From positions 72,292,001 to 72,356,000 of the forward strand of contig OX597819.1 of assembly GCA_951406725.2 (NCBI GenBank): DNA of 64,000 nt, written 5' to 3'. Positions 1-44,529 of the stretch are shown here, piece by piece (the stretch's first letter is position 1; each line of letters begins with the position of its first letter). The notes below the pieces were generated by a model. That model ran no database searches, had not been told where the DNA came from, and saw only the letters and a program-made list of their open reading frames with translations. This stretch comes from Octopus vulgaris (taxonomy: Eukaryota). The position numbers and the translations under genes were made by a program.

Positions 1-626
1 TGTAATCGCACCAAAGGGCCCACACCATCTCCAGATATCATCCCCCAAACCATGACACTTCCTCCACCGAATTTAACACTAGTCTTAAGGCATTTAGGCG
101 ACAATTTTTCACATACTTTTCAACGAACGTACTTTTTCCCATCTGAGTCAAATAACATAAACTTAGATTCATCACTGAAATGCACCGTTTGCCATTTTTC
201 TTGAGACCACAAAAAATGTTCGGCTGCAAAGGTAAGACGACACTTTTTATTCTTGGAGCTGATCAGTGGCTTCACTGCAGGTGTTATTGCTTGTAGGTCA
301 TGTTCAACTAAACGACGAGACACAGTTTTTCGAGATAAACTTTTCTTCAATACAATGCTCATTTTCCGAGAAACAGCAGCAGCAGTTTTAAATCTGTCCT
401 TTTTAACCAACTTTACCATAGCACGACCTTCTCTCTTAGTCGTTTTTCTTGGCCTACCTGTAAACTTTCTAGCTTCACACGAACCACAATCATCGTAGAC
501 CTTAAGAATACCGTATACAACACTTTTTGACTTGTCAACAATCTTTGCAATAGATCCAATACTTAAATTATCCTTCCTTCGAAGCTTAATAATCTGCTGA
601 CGAATTGGTAACGGAGTAAGTGGCAT
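1..626 (-). pseudogene. Tc1-family transposase, disrupted (stop/frameshift near 120)
   Basis: Paired-like HTH N-terminus, GRPRKTT linker and W..VHFSDESKF (first catalytic D). After the break another frame reads VKFGGGSVMVWGMISGDGVGPLVRL. Confidence 0.9.
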
Positions 627-968
627 TATATTAACAAAGTACACTGCAAATATTCTTACTAATGTTTAGTAAACGAACCGTCACGTAAACAAATCCAAAA
701 CATTAGAGTTCGCCGGTTAAATATACTAAAACACAGAGTAAAAGCAACCGTTCTGATCATTTTGGCCGCCATGGGTTTTGCAGTAAATCATTAAATCATC
801 CATAACTTTTGTATTATCCTCTCAAATTACACCAAAATCTCAGGCAATAACAATTAATATCGTATTTATTGTCTGTGATAATTATAAAATATAAAACAAC
901 TTTGATAAAAAATTATATCTACTTTTCTGACGAAAACAATGCCGTTCTGAACATTTTAGCCGCCACTG
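1..968 (-). mobile_element. Tc1-like DNA transposon, 5' part (runs off the window start)
   Basis: On the minus strand the TIR begins CAGTGGCGGCTAAAATGTTCAGAACGG at 968, flanked by TA (969-970). An inner copy of this motif lies at ~748-771. The transposase reading frame follows. Confidence 0.9.
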
Positions 969-2415: not shown

Positions 2416-2477
<62 letters not shown>

Positions 2478-2649
2478 AATATTAGGGAATAAATCCAAAT
2501 TTACAGGGAAAAAATCAGATTTAGGATTAAATCCAATTTTATAGTAAAATATTATATAATATTATTAGAGACAAAACCACTATTTTGCAAAACAAACAAG
2601 GAAAGACTTAATCAATACATAAAATTTTAATAAAAAGTCAAAAAAACCG

Positions 2650-2692
2650 CCACTACAATTGTTTCTTGTCCTGATCGACAATCTACAGGTGG
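2650..2692 (-). ncRNA. Minimal type I hammerhead ribozyme motif (A6U core variant)
   Basis: CCAC-CUGUAGA-UUGUC-gaucag-GACAA-GAAAC-AAUU-GUA-GUGG. Confidence 0.7.
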
Positions 2693-2799
2693 ACTTCCAA
2701 TTTTCAAGTCAGTTTCAAATTCGACGAACAGGAGAGAAGCACTGTAAAACAAAGACCCATCACGTTACATAATTTGAAACTGACTTGAAAATTGGAAGT

Positions 2800-2842
2800 C
2801 CACCTGTAGATTGTCGATCAGGACAAGAAACAATTGTAGTGG
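2800..2842 (+). ncRNA. Minimal type I hammerhead ribozyme motif (A6U core variant)
   Basis: CCAC-CTGTAGA-TTGTC-gatcag-GACAA-GAAAC-AATT-GTA-GTGG. Confidence 0.7.
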
Positions 2843-2925
2843 CGGTTTTTTTGACTTTTTATTAAAATTTTATGTATTGATTAAGTCTTTCCTTGTTTGT
2901 TTTGCAAAATAGTGGTTTTGTCTCT

Positions 2926-2987
<62 letters not shown>

Positions 2988-12584: not shown

Positions 12585-12940
12585 CAGAGTACTCTCCTGG
12601 GGATGGGGAATATATGTTTGAGATGCTTAAATATATGGTAGAGCCAATAGAGTATACTGCAGGAAGGATATAAGTTCAGGACGTTACAGTACGTTGTTAG
12701 AGCCTATATAATACTCTGATGGAGAGATATAAGTGCGGGACGCTTAAATAAATGGTAGAACTTATATATTGCTCTGCTGAAGGATATAACTTTAGGACGC
12801 TAAAATACATTTATAGAACCTATATTGTATTGTGTTGGTGGGATATAAGCTTGGGACGCGTAAATATATGATAAAACTTACATAATACTCTGGTGGGGGG
12901 ATTTATGCTTGGGACGCTTAAATACATGATAGAGCCTATT
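12585..12940. repeat. Diverged minisatellite, ~58-59-bp unit, ~6 copies
   Basis: GGATATAAG.TT.GGACGCTTAAATA.ATG.TAGA.CCTAT recurs at ~12667, 12726, 12783, 12841 and 12899. Confidence 0.85.
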
Positions 12941-20287: not shown

Positions 20288-20513
20288 ACGTGTGTGTGTG
20301 CACGTGTGTGTGTGCACGTGTGTGTGTGCACGTGTGTGTGTGTGTGTGTCTGAAATATGTCACAAATTTATTTGAACTAATCGAAAAGTTTGTTTATTTC
20401 ACAAGACTGCTTCGCACGCCAACCATATATATATATATGTTTTGTATGTTTTGTTTCTCTGTTTGTTTATTTTTTGCTTGAGCCATGTACCTTCACATGA
20501 ATATATATATATA

Positions 20514-20849
20514 TATTATATTAAATTAGAGATAAAACCACTATTAGGCAAATCAAACAGTGAAAATCATAAGTCAATACATAGAAATAAAATTACTTAA
20601 AAAAATATAAAATATAAAATATAAAATTCCGAATTAAAATATTTCAATTAAAGTTAAAATTTAAAAATTATTTAAATTAATAATTTAAACTTATAAATTT
20701 TAAATATATATATATATATATATAATTTTTTTTAATTATATAACTATCAAAAAGTATTAAAAGTTTAATATAAGATAAAGAGTAAAAACTTTTAATACTT
20801 TTTGATAGTTATATAATTTTTTTTAAATTTTAAAATAAATATAAAATAA

Positions 20850-20898
<49 letters not shown>

Positions 20899-21166
20899 AA
20901 ATTTATAAGTTTAAATTATTAATTTAGATAATTTTTTTAATTTTAACTTTAATTTAAATATTTTGATTTGGAATTTTATATTTTATATTTTATATTTTTT
21001 ATATGTTTTTTATGTAATTTATTTCTATGTATTGGCTTATGATTTTCACTGTTTGATTTGCCTAATAGTGGTTTTATCTCTAATTTAATATAATATATAC
21101 TTATACTATAAAATTAGATTTAATCCTAAATCTAATTTTTCCCTGTAAGTTTGGATTTACTCCCTA

Positions 21167-21168
<2 letters not shown>
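20514..21168. mobile_element. AT-rich fold-back element related to 2474-2933 and 27011-27608
   Basis: Inverted arms of ~250 bp beginning ATTAGAGATAAAACCACTATT, with a one-sided extension ending TTTGGATTTACTCCCTAAT(TAT)n. Confidence 0.75.
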
Positions 21169-21231
<63 letters not shown>

Positions 21232-21796: not shown

Positions 21797-22397
<601 letters not shown>

Positions 22398-25149: not shown

Positions 25150-26941
25150 TTAATTTAACGCTGATGATTAAAGGATTAGTCGGCAGTAATGCAATATGGT
25201 ATTGTCCCTAGTCTTCCGACTCATAAAGCTGGTTTCCGGTTTCCATGGCATTTAAGTAACTGTGATAACAAAATTCCTCTCGGAGGGGACGCCAGTCCTT
25301 CTAATTGTTTCTCATTAGCTGCAACAAGATGAAATGAGGTGTTTTGCTCAAGAGCTCAACACACTGCCCGGTCCGAGATTCGAAACGACAATCTTGTGAT
25401 CGTGAATGCAACACCCTAACTAGTAAGCAACGCGCCTTCACAGTAGTGCAAAGTCATTAGCGTGTCGGACAAAATGCTTAGCGGTATTTCTTTTGGTTCT
25501 TTACGTTTTGAGTTCACATACCGTCGGGATCAACTCCTCCTTACATCCTTTCTAGATAAAATAAAGTATTAGTCAGGTATTTGGGGTTTATAAAGATAGA
25601 CTTCGCCCGACCCTGCTACAAAAATGGCACAAAAAGCAGGAACAATTATACAAATCCATTTTGCCGATGTTGTAATCACTCAACCAAAATGGCCGCCTTT
25701 TGTTCGTCTTTATGTAAACCTGACTTACAAATCGTCAGCCGTTGTTCGCCAGACTAAGAAATTTGGCAAATTAGTTTATCAGATTGCGTAGAGAAGGCGA
25801 CAGAGAAATAGTGTTTTAGTTTATCAGTTTCTGCTTGTTTACGCTTCTTCAGCTGATAAGCATGTCAATAAAGCAATGATAAGGCGATAATAAGCAACTA
25901 AGTCGACTAACGGTAAACATAACGGTGGTTCTGGTTCTCCAAGACTCTTCTGGGAATCCAGTATCAGTTTCAATTCTATTTCGAGGGGGAAATAGGAGAT
26001 TTTTTGCAGCGGCTGAAAATCTCTTCCAGAAATGTTTTTCTTCATCATAAAATTTTTCCGGGTTTTCGCTACACAATATTTCTAATTGAGATTGATTTCA
26101 CCAGGCATACATACATGCACACACACACACATACACACACACACAAATACACACACGCACAAATACACACACGCACACACACACACAAATATACACACGC
26201 ACATACACACATATACACACATGTACATGCACACAAACACACATACACACATATATACACACACCTACTTGCACACATGTACATGCACACAAACACACAC
26301 ACAAGCACACACACACAAACATGCACATACACACACTCTCTTTCTCTCTATCTCTCACACACGCACGCACACACACACAAACACACGCACATACAGACGC
26401 ACACTCACTCGTTCCCTTATTCGTACGCACACACAAACACACGCACATACACACAGGCGCACACGCACTCACTCATTTACTTATTCATACGCACTCACTC
26501 ATTTACTTATTCATACGCACACACACATGCACCCTTTATCTCTTCCGATTTCTTACATTGGCACATGGCCATACTTCGGAGGTGAAGGAATGCTGCAAAC
26601 TGAAAACTGCAGCAGAACTTGACTGGTGTTTATTTTATCGACTTCAGTGTAATTTCGATTTTGCCGGAAATAAATAAGGAAAGCTCTCAGCGTTGCAATC
26701 TCAGATTCGCCATTCTTGACAAACATTTCAACGGCGAATACACAGCGTGAACCAGTACAAAACCATAATAGTAACTAAAAGGAAACAACAGTAAGACATT
26801 AGTTATATGAAGACACCATTACCACCTGGATAACATCTCCAGCGCTACAACAATGGCCGTGCAAAATATGGAACGTATTTTTGCTGCACTGTGTTTGTGT
26901 ATGTGTGTGTATATATATGTGTACATATATATATATATGTG

Positions 26942-27013
<72 letters not shown>

Positions 27014-27097
27014 TCGAGACAAAACCACTATTTTGCAAAACAAACAAGGAAAGACTTAATCAATACATAAAAATTTTTGATATAAAGAAATAAACCG

Positions 27098-27209
27098 CCA
27101 CTACAATCGTTTCATGTCTTCAATGACATTCGTCAGGTGGATTTTCGATCTAAAATATCTAAACCGCCACTACAATCGTTTCATGTCTTCAATGACATTC
27201 GTCAGGTGG
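27098..27209 (-). ncRNA. Two tandem minimal type I hammerhead ribozymes (27098-27140, 27167-27209)
   Basis: CCAC-CUGACGA-AUGUC-auugaa-GACAU-GAAAC-GAUU-GUA-GUGG, canonical core. Confidence 0.85.
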
Positions 27210-27300
27210 ATTTTCGATCTAAAATATCTAAACCGCCACTACAATCGTTTCATGTCTTGAAACGATTGTAGTGGCGGTTTAGATATTTTAGATCGAAAAT

Positions 27301-27481
27301 CCACCTGACGAATGTCATTGAAGACATGAAACGATTGTAGTGGCGGTTTAGATATTTTAGATCGAAAATCCACCTGACGAATGTCATTGAAGACATGAAA
27401 CGATTGTAGTGGCGGTTTAGATATTTTAGATCGAAAATCCACCTGACGAATGTCATTGAAGACATGAAACGATTGTAGTGG
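27301..27481 (+). ncRNA. Three tandem minimal type I hammerhead ribozymes (27301-27343, 27370-27412, 27439-27481)
   Basis: CCAC-CTGACGA-ATGTC-attgaa-GACAT-GAAAC-GATT-GTA-GTGG, canonical core. Confidence 0.85.
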
Positions 27482-27615
27482 CGGTTTAGATATTTTTGCA
27501 AAATAGTGGTTTTGTCTCGAATTGATATTATATAATATTTTACTATAAAATTGGATTTAATCCTAAATCTGATTTTTTCCCTGTAAATTTGGATTTATTC
27601 CCTAATATTTATTAT

Positions 27616-27665
<50 letters not shown>

Positions 27666-43252: not shown

Positions 43253-44529
43253 CGAGGGACGTTCAATAAGTAATGCCTCTGACCCACTTGCAGATCTAGC
43301 TGAAATTTTGCATCATTTATATCTCTATAGAGTAAGTGACAAATTACAGCTCTGAATTAATTGTGGTTTCTGATTTACAGGTGTTTGAACCGAGTCAAGT
43401 GTGAAATGGAGCCTGTTGAGTGTCGAGCAGTGATCCGGTTTTTGTATTTGAAAGGACGCACACCACGGGAGACTTTTGATGAAATGAAAGTAACTTATGG
43501 TGATGATGCCCCATCATATGACCTTGTAAAACGCTGGCATCGTGAATTCAAACATGGTCGGAACTCTGTGGAAACAGCTCCCAGATCTGGTCGGCCCCTT
43601 CTGCCGTTGATGAGACGTCTGTCCGTCAAGTTGAGGCTGCCATTTTGGAAGGTCAACGCATAACTATTCGCCAAATAGCCCATAAGGTCAAGATTAGTAC
43701 CGGGTCTGTGGAAACTATCATTCATGACCATTTGCATATGCAAAAGGTGTCTGCCAGATGGATTCCCAGGTTGCTCACGCCTTTCCAGAAGCAAGAACGC
43801 GTCGAGTGTTCGAGGGTGAATTTGGAGATGTGCCAAGAAGATGAGTCAAAATTTTTCAAAAGACTGATTACACAGGATGAAACCCGGGTCCATCACGATG
43901 ATCCAGAGACCAAAGCCCAGTCAATGCAGTGGAAGCACCGTGACTCACCCCCTCCAAAGAAGGCAAGGGTGCAGCCCTCCGCTGGCAAGGTCATGCTCAC
44001 AGTCTTCTGGGACCAGGACGGAGTAGTGATGACAGATTTCCTGGCAAAGGGTACCACAATTGCAGGAGCCTATTATGTTTCACTTTTGAGGAAATTAAGA
44101 GAAGTTATCAAAATCAAGAGGCGGGGCAAGATCAGCAAAGGCATCCTCCTCCTGCAGGACAACGCTCCGGTCCACAACTCGCTTGTCGCCAGATCAGAAG
44201 CACAGGCGTATGGCTATGAACTCCTCCCCATCCCCCCTACTTTCCTGACCTTGCACCCTCTGATTTTCACCTCTTCCCAATCATGAAGTTGTTTTTGAAA
44301 GGAAAGCGTTTATCAGATGATGCAGCCTTGATTTCTGAAGTCACGTTGAGGTTGGAGGACCAAGCTGGGTTCTTCTACAAAAACAGTCTCCAGAGCCGCA
44401 TCAAACGATGGGAGAAATGCGTAACTCTGGGTGGTTCCTATGTAGAAAAAGACTAATAACTGTGCCAAGTTTCGTTTCTCTACCCCTATGGGAAGTGGGT
44501 CAGGGGCATTACTTATTGAACGCCCCTCG
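43253..44529 (+). mobile_element. Full-length mariner transposon (irritans/Hsmar2-like, DD34D)
   Basis: TIRs CGAGGGACGTTCAATAAGTAATGCCTCTGACCCACTT / AAGTGGGTCAGGGGCATTACTTATTGAACGCCCCTCG, TA on both sides, 1277 bp. Confidence 0.95.
43406..44456 (+). pseudogene. mariner transposase, frameshifted
   Basis: MEPVECRAVIRFLYLKG...WIPRLL...ITQDET...LLQDNAPVH...PDLAPSDF...GGSYVEKD*, with frameshifts near 43600 and 44235. Confidence 0.93.

What the first reader, a model, noticed from the sequence alone, without database searches (positions are those of the whole stretch)
27011..27608. Palindromic array of identical 69-bp hammerhead ribozyme monomers
Seen: a 69-bp unit made of a 43-nt canonical-core HHR (CCAC-CTGACGA-ATGTC-attgaa-GACAT-GAAAC-GATT-GTA-GTGG) and a 26-nt linker. 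It is repeated perfectly, twice on the minus strand and three times on the plus strand, with two half units meeting at a 5-nt loop (~27253-27257). The array is nested in the same arms and tail as the single-HHR fold-back at 2474-2933. Stem III has only 2 bp, but ACGAUUGU pairs with itself (two G-U), so neighbouring units can form double hammerheads. Known: dimeric cleavage of minimal HHRs occurs in newt satellite 2, ASBVd and PLEs, and retrozyme arrays are thought to arise by reverse transcription of circular RNA. Inference: transcription of either strand could release 69-nt monomers, well below the few-hundred-nt retrozyme monomers I know of. The array may be a rolling cDNA copy of such a minicircle made by a PLE reverse transcriptase, i.e. 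a minimal retrozyme emerging from a pLTR. This is the best candidate for an undescribed system in the window.
Basis: partly seen in the sequence, partly recalled or inferred. Interest (0 to 1): 0.9.

Follow-up and report, generated by a model that had tools for sequence, protein, structure and literature searches.

The report
One-off ribozyme stutter in Penelope fragment
Five identical 69-base copies of a hammerhead (self-cutting RNA) motif sit inside one short fragment of a common Penelope-like jumping gene, the repeated form occurs at this one spot only, and it is likely a one-off copying stutter rather than a new mobile RNA circle.

Summary
The array is real: five identical 69-bp units (2 minus, 3 plus strand) in a perfect 162-bp palindrome. 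The unit is an unchanged piece of the terminal repeat (pLTR) of a Hydra-clade Penelope-like element (PLE) with 2,034 such hammerhead motifs and intact 820-860 aa ORFs in this genome. The unit-to-unit junction occurs only here (5 of 5 hits), lies 11 nt from the cleavage site, and carries an intron end, so hammerhead cutting of the parent RNA did not create it. A dimer folds as a double hammerhead, but a read-through RNA of either strand folds into one long hairpin that buries the ribozymes. Other short tandems in the family each have their own junction, also outside the ribozyme. Tandem pLTR-derived hammerhead arrays with 51-972 bp units are in print (2026 preprint). Verdict: likely one-off reiterative copying at insertion; a circle template is not excluded (0.2). 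Side finding: intronless retrocopies outnumber intron-bearing ones 207 to 55. No look-alike in earlier scan notes.

The parts
26910..27005 (.). (TA)n target, left flank
27006..27090 (-). Left arm: intact 3' end of the Hydra-PLE pLTR (no tail)
   Evidence: 97-98% to natural copy L066 over 27008-27159
27091..27159 (-). 69-bp unit, native position in the pLTR; hammerhead at 27140-27098
27160..27228 (-). 69-bp unit (extra copy); hammerhead at 27209-27167
27229..27258 (-). 30-nt 3' part of a unit, truncated in loop II
27253..27258 (.). Centre of the fold-back: 5-nt loop, arms overlap by 1 nt at 27258
   Evidence: 1-7 nt overlaps in 16 of 25 family fold-backs
27258..27281 (+). 24-nt 3' part of a unit
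27282..27350 (+). 69-bp unit: last 10 nt of the pLTR intron, 9 nt of exon, 43-nt hammerhead (27301-27343; predicted cut after 27339), 7 nt closing extended stem I
27351..27419 (+). 69-bp unit; hammerhead 27370-27412, predicted cut after 27408
27420..27488 (+). 69-bp unit; hammerhead 27439-27481, predicted cut after 27477
27489..27496 (+). First 8 nt of a fourth unit, joined through a 3-nt T-run overlap to the pLTR end, about 50 nt of parent sequence skipped
27497..27531 (+). pLTR 3' end, right arm
27532..27618 (+). 'Tail': the ~90 nt that follow the upstream pLTR before the ORF in full-length copies
27619..27663 (.). (TA)n target, right flank
2474..2933 (.). Comparison element: sister-subfamily fold-back made from spliced RNA, one hammerhead-like motif per arm

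Best explanation
This is one short fold-back insertion of a Hydra-clade Penelope-like retrotransposon in a (TA)n tract, in which the 69-bp hammerhead segment of the terminal repeat is present five times, likely because the copying enzyme slipped back over that hairpin several times during this single insertion, and it is likely a dead end. Shown: the unit is an unchanged pLTR piece of the unspliced form; two-armed fold-backs with one tail are the family's normal product; the junction is private to this locus. Inferred mechanism: the element's endonuclease nicks both strands of the (TA)n target and its reverse transcriptase starts at two internal sites on uncut element RNA (pLTR end and tail end, as shown in vitro for another PLE). 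One nascent DNA reached the 5' foot of the hammerhead hairpin, re-engaged at its 3' foot 69 nt back, and repeated this; the multimer passed to the second arm by snap-back or in-register copying while the two ends were joined by short microhomology. The ribozymes were passengers. Predicted outcome: read-through transcripts fold into one long double-stranded hairpin, so 69-nt monomers would form only if transcription began at the palindrome centre.
For: Junction 25-mer (<=1 mismatch): 5 of 5 hits here; any head-to-tail pair of this motif with 0-60 nt gap: 5 of 5 here; 293 of 298 exact motif hits lie elsewhere; 38 of 43 DNA matches cover exactly one unit (40 of 948 candidates scored). Parent found: RT between two pLTRs (L066) and intact 821-862 aa ORFs with Hydra marks. 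Fold-backs are routine: 25 parsed, 24 with a tail on one arm, arms not nested (13 tail-longer, 8 other-longer, 3 equal), 1-7 nt overlaps in 16, matching two-site internal priming in PMC11167929. Four other short tandems over the motif each have their own junction (107/109-nt trimer that includes a fold-back centre, 108-nt dimer, a partial tandem, a 22-nt duplication), and a non-ribozyme 16-mer shows 4 short tandems too (one spans an N gap, one also holds the motif). The junction is 11 nt 3' of the cut site, at the last pair of extended stem I (pair probability 0.90). No pile-up of arms at the cut site: 8 hits, 7 arms starting there, against 2,034 intact motifs. Hairpin masking.
Against: The same junction is in BOTH arms, whereas the four other tandems affect one arm; in a family whose arms are primed separately this fits a template that was already multimeric or circular. 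The junction has no microhomology. Entry and exit fall at arbitrary phases of the unit, as rolling on a circle would give. None of the 55 other unspliced copies shows this slip, so it is not a reproducible property of the hairpin. The assembly is one haplotype; a source elsewhere cannot be excluded. The arm statistics come from loci picked for an exact subfamily-A motif, mostly on C1-C6, by an automatic parse (one row, L011, mis-parsed). Folding numbers are equilibrium predictions.
Confidence: 0.6

Rival explanations
1. Nascent minimal retrozyme: the PLE reverse transcriptase rolled on a covalent 69-nt RNA circle, or copied a multimeric RNA, from a source that is lost or on the unassembled haplotype (the first reader's model; the first junction must still have been made by something other than hammerhead cutting).
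For: Identical junction in both arms; 5.9 perfect units; arbitrary entry and exit phase; dimer folds as double hammerhead (P 0.27 versus 0.005 for a monomer); meets the operational retrozyme definition of the 2026 preprint.
Against: No second locus in 2.8 Gb; junction not at the cut site; no sign that cut RNA is used as template, in line with PMC11167929; only 1 of 9 predicted retrozyme dimers cleaved in vitro in the preprint; this copy is masked by its own palindrome.
Confidence: 0.2
2. Post-insertion DNA events: replication slippage duplicated and expanded the 69 bp in one arm, and a palindrome-driven template switch copied it into the other arm.
For: Left arm (30 nt + 2 units) is what a snap-back onto the nearest of 3 right-arm units would copy; the 107/109-nt trimer L116 includes a joined fold-back centre, so DNA-templated slip-back does occur in this family.
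Against: Needs four or more separate events with no substitution in 407 bp (7 of 22 fold-backs have mismatch-free arms, mean 1.2%); the unit's hairpin is weak as DNA (about -4 kcal/mol) and strong as RNA (-12 to -20); no microhomology at the junction.
Confidence: 0.13
3. Sequencing or assembly artefact of a palindrome.
For: Perfect palindrome with a tiny loop; no contig from four other runs is shown crossing the private junctions (inconclusive).
Against: Arms are asymmetric (3 versus 2 units, deletion and tail on one side) with unrelated unique flanks; the outer anatomy is that of dozens of family insertions.
Confidence: 0.07

Closest known systems
Hydra-clade Penelope-like elements (Craig et al. 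2021, PMC8557442), inverted 5'-truncated pLTR copies with a tail
   Same: RWK-like and DKT motifs, CxCX5C linker, C-terminal GIY-YIG-like region, (TA)n target, hammerhead with an extra base on each side of stem II, palindromic stem III and GUA/GUU cut triplet, head-to-head arms, tail on one side.
   Different: The hammerhead differs in sequence from the listed Hydra-1_oBim motif, so this looks like another family; the 69-bp internal multimer is private to this insertion.
Non-LTR retrozymes (Cervera and de la Pena 2020, PMC7229834; Li, Clavereau, Pollet 2026 preprint 10.64898/2026.07.22.740005)
   Same: Head-to-tail units each with a type I hammerhead; derived from a PLE pLTR; unit length inside the reported 51-972 bp range; few repeats.
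   Different: One locus only, no dispersed multimers; nested in a palindrome predicted to block cleavage; no RNA evidence; neither paper's passages seen cover a cephalopod.
Minimal PLE hammerheads acting as dimers (Cervera and de la Pena 2014, PMC4209133) and the protein-assisted PAc hammerhead (Frangieh et al. 2024, PMC11167929)
   Same: Unstable 2-bp stem III with palindromic loop; intron end abutting stem I so spliced and unspliced forms differ; uncut RNA is the insertion substrate; two RT start sites define the tail.
   Different: Here the dimer partner is 69 nt away rather than one element length away.

Membership tests
Hydra-clade PLE (parent element) | RWK motif in place of GxKF/Y and DKT in place of DKG | tested here: met
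   Intact ORFs read RIKWK and SDKTRNLY; a 54%-identical sister family reads RWR/RWK and DKT
Hydra-clade PLE (parent element) | CxCX5C linker and C-terminal GIY-YIG endonuclease with CxxC and CxH | tested here: met
   CTCRDKSNC, VYKC...YIG, CYLC, CRH read by eye in L106/L107. Pfam and PDB sequence searches gave no significant hit; atlas neighbours include RT families (RVT_1 on 16-48% of members)
Hydra-clade PLE (parent element) | Single ORF flanked by pLTRs with hammerhead; (TA)n insertion | tested here: met
Hydra-clade PLE (parent element) | Placement in the Hydra clade on an RT tree | not tested
   No reference Hydra proteins were held as tool sequences
Type I hammerhead ribozyme | Core CUGANGA / GAAA / NUH with stems I-III | tested here: met
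   Motif scan and constrained folding; pattern matches Hydra entries in File S2 of PMC8557442. First stem II pair is A-U, not the usual G-C; Rfam gives no hit
Type I hammerhead ribozyme | Self-cleavage | not testable with these tools
   Genomic proxy negative: no pile-up of arms at the cut site
Non-LTR retrozyme | Two or more consecutive tandem units each with a complete hammerhead (preprint's working definition) | tested here: met
   3 plus 2 units
Non-LTR retrozyme | Mobile family: same unit as multimer at several loci | tested here: not met
   Junction at 1 locus only
Non-LTR retrozyme | Transcript able to self-cleave into monomers | tested here: inconclusive
   Isolated dimer P 0.27; right arm alone 0.03 per pair; read-through from 27190 or further left 1e-7 or lower; predictions only
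Non-LTR retrozyme | Monomeric linear and circular RNA in vivo | not testable with these tools
   No RNA holder on record; contigs cannot show it

The most novel reading that the evidence does not exclude
A PLE reverse transcriptase, sister to telomerase, was caught copying a 69-nt hairpin-bounded RNA module round after round (a true circle, or a linear piece whose ends the stem holds together), so this locus is a snapshot of the birth of a minimal retrozyme and of telomerase-like repeat addition by a retrotransposon enzyme.
Probability: 0.2. Interest if true: 0.65.

Novelty: new member of a known kind. Interest (0 to 1): 0.32.

Why it matters
As it stands it is a tidy example of the proposed route from a PLE terminal repeat to a tandem hammerhead array, with parent, junction and sibling accidents all visible in one genome, and it warns that arrays counted as 'active retrozymes' can be single-locus by-products silenced by their own palindrome. 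If a 69-nt circle or reiterative copying were shown, it would give a minimal substrate for testing how PLE reverse transcriptases make tandems. The side finding may matter more to PLE specialists: 207 intronless retrocopies that stop at one 5' position show that sense, spliced, uncut RNA is a main template, which bears on the open question of why PLEs keep introns.

Tried and rejected
Other multimer loci: none with this junction. Junction in metagenome contigs: 0. Rfam: no hammerhead; the top 150 of 319 whole-window rows shown were AT-repeat and hairpin look-alikes. Sequencing runs: no RNA holder listed, best share of words 0.45; four runs of contigs laid showed parent-family pieces, none of the 32 pieces listed (of 11,400) crossed the private junctions; inconclusive, not used as evidence. 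Back-splicing as source of the unit: rejected, no AG before and no GT after the junction. Hammerhead cut-and-ligate of parent RNA: rejected, junction 11 nt off. Slippage on a degenerate repeat in the parent: rejected by eye, the similar stretch is 68, not 69, nt apart. Simple snap-back as the family's general mechanism: rejected, arms not nested. Naiad clade: rejected (C-terminal endonuclease, DKT, hammerhead present). Pfam/PDB sequence searches of the ORF: nothing significant. My window motif scan printed no rows (it demanded a pair pattern too strictly); redone. Literature searches without a matching description: (0 papers). Earlier scan notes: no look-alike; one word match on another topic.

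Full report
Observation. The window holds two perfect period-69 runs, 27091-27258 and 27258-27496, forming a 162-bp perfect inverted repeat round a 5-nt loop. Five full units are identical; partial units are 30, 24 and 8 nt. The element lies between (TA)n tracts and shares arms and tail with the fold-back at 2474-2933. The genome is 2.8 Gb in 227 contigs; named homologues of the element's protein come from Argonauta and Octopus, so an octopod host is inferred.

The unit is a piece of a PLE terminal repeat. A DNA search gave 43 matches (40 of 948 candidates scored), 38 of them covering exactly one unit. The 43-nt hammerhead has 298 exact hits, 5 of them here; a looser family pattern has 2,034. 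Locus L066 has a broken RT ORF between two 490-bp pLTRs, and 9 of 10 fetched copies have open frames of 821-862 aa (one of 699). The protein reads RIKWK, SDKT, YRDD, CTCRDKSNC, VYKC...YIG, CYLC and CRH, the marks given for the Hydra clade in PMC8557442 (passages); the hammerhead follows the Hydra pattern in its File S2, and File S1 lists a Hydra family in Octopus bimaculoides with a different hammerhead (supplement part 2 of 59). Pfam and PDB found nothing significant; no tree was built. The 'tail' is the ~90 nt following the upstream pLTR.

The pLTR has an intron. Full copies show a short exon, a GT donor, about 1.1 kb (1,095-1,162 nt in 3 copies) and an AG acceptor 10 nt before the hammerhead. 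The exact spliced junction has 207 genomic hits and the unspliced acceptor 55. In 24 spliced fold-backs no arm runs beyond position -36 and 9 of 48 arms end exactly there, which marks a likely transcription start. The 69-bp unit begins with the last 10 nt of the intron, so it comes from unspliced RNA or DNA, and the array lacks the exon and start site.

Fold-backs are the family's normal product. Of 25 parsed (loci chosen for an exact subfamily-A motif, mostly C1-C6; L011 mis-parsed), 24 have the tail on one arm; the tail arm is longer in 13, shorter in 8, equal in 3; centres overlap by 1-7 nt in 16 and carry short inserts in 8. Arms within a locus differ by 1.2% (33 of 2,733 sites, 22 loci) against 2.6% between distinct arms. 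This fits two separately primed cDNAs joined by microhomology. PMC11167929 (main text, parts 1-2 of 4) shows this in vitro for another PLE: both strands are cut and extended, RT starts at two internal sites that bound the tail, uncut RNA is the substrate, the hammerhead is dispensable and cuts only with protein. Inverted pLTRs with tail are also described in PMC3846280 (passages).

The multimer is private. The junction 25-mer with up to one mismatch has 5 hits, all here, as has any tandem of this motif with a 0-60 nt gap. Wider family patterns gave 9 hits at 4 loci each: besides this one, a 107/109-nt trimer whose unit includes a fold-back centre (L116), a 108-nt dimer (L123), a partial tandem (L124) and a 22-nt duplication (L125), each with its own junction and in one arm only. 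A control 16-mer outside the ribozyme has 4 short tandems (one spans an N gap, one includes the motif). Short tandems are thus a rare, recurrent accident of this family and not tied to the ribozyme.

The junction was not made by the ribozyme. It lies 11 nt 3' of the predicted cut, without microhomology, at the last pair of extended stem I; the 5' end lies at a helix just below. Arms that start at the cut site are not piled up: 8 hits, 1 a point change, 7 arms at 6 loci (two may be a shared 3-nt deletion); my rough background is about 5 per position.

Could it work as a retrozyme? A monomer rarely adopts the active fold (P 0.005); a dimer's minimum-energy structure is the double hammerhead (P 0.27; z -0.96 against shuffles). 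Stem III is self-complementary in 11 of 12 family variants. But on either strand the antisense arm is transcribed first: the whole element folds into one hairpin of -384 or -372 kcal/mol with P(double hammerhead) about 1e-58 or lower, and starts at 27190 or further left give 1e-7 or lower; only starts near the centre keep 0.03-0.09. These are equilibrium predictions. Expression and raw-read support could not be tested.

Mechanism. Most likely (0.6) one insertion during which copying slipped back across the hammerhead hairpin several times, the multimer passing to the second arm during joining. Against this, the same junction sits in both arms and entry and exit phases are arbitrary, which suits a circular or multimeric RNA template (0.2). 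Later DNA slippage (0.13) and artefact (0.07) remain. The analogies to telomerase repeat addition and to microhomology-mediated end joining are recalled, not from a call.

Relation to print. The preprint 10.64898/2026.07.22.740005 (parts 1-3 of 5 and passages; supplements not seen) defines retrozymes as two or more tandem hammerhead units, reports units of 51-972 bp, derives them from pLTRs by local amplification, and found cleavage in 1 of 9 dimers. PMC7229834 (passages) gives 220-350 nt monomers with circles in vivo; PMC4209133 (parts 1-2 of 4) covers dimeric minimal hammerheads, low activity and the intron end at helix I; PMC2377424 (passages) the Penelope intron; PMC1636495 (passages) GUA triplets in natural hammerheads; PMC6431247 and PMC2837043 (passages) added little. 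No paper on an octopus hammerhead array turned up, and none on intronless PLE retrocopies; the library lacks most subscription papers.

Verdict. Real, explained as a single-locus tandem of a Hydra-PLE hammerhead, new member of a known kind, interest 0.32.

Noticed in passing
G000-wide; e.g. L076, L041, L053 (spliced) versus L013, L026, L066 (unspliced); window 2474-2933: Intronless retrocopies of the PLE's 5' end outnumber intron-bearing ones 207 to 55 and stop at one 5' position. PLEs are described as keeping introns, and an antisense template was proposed to explain it (PMC3846280); these copies point to sense, spliced, uncut RNA as a main template.
   Followed up: partly
L066 and L076 around the hammerhead: Splicing changes the predicted distal stem I of the hammerhead, as noted for Drosophila Penelope; possible splice control of the ribozyme.
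   Followed up: partly
L116 (G000:C5:64451667-64451892): Hammerhead trimer with 107/109-nt period whose unit includes the fold-back centre; slip also occurs at the 3' foot of stem I. Its antisense arm covers only part of one motif, so it is a better candidate than this locus for releasing monomers.
   Followed up: partly
L123 (G000:C12:27130895-27131018): 108-nt head-to-tail hammerhead dimer with no inverted arm, in (TA)n.
   Followed up: partly
window 2644-2696 and 2796-2848; centre 2722-2770: Both arms share a core change at the conserved A6 position, and the centre holds a 49-nt stretch of unrelated sequence.
   Followed up: partly
window 20507-21180: Third, more diverged fold-back of the same family (about 80% identical ends and tail) with AT-rich arms and no recognisable hammerhead.
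   Followed up: partly
L106 2206-4719, L107: Intact ~840-aa Hydra ORFs, 94% alike to L066's RT, with an asparagine-rich stretch between RT and endonuclease, like that reported in rotifer Penelope ORFs; family looks recently active.
   Followed up: partly
L146-L152: A second Hydra-like family (about 54% identical RT, ORFs up to 955 aa) with no hammerhead found by my descriptor in the fetched 9-kb stretches.
   Followed up: no
window 120-665 (-) and 43546-44286 (+): Open frames that look like Tc1 and mariner transposase fragments (recalled resemblance, not searched).
   Followed up: no
window 21826-22374 and 12605-12939: 275-bp direct duplication (97%) and a degenerate 58-bp tandem array.
   Followed up: no
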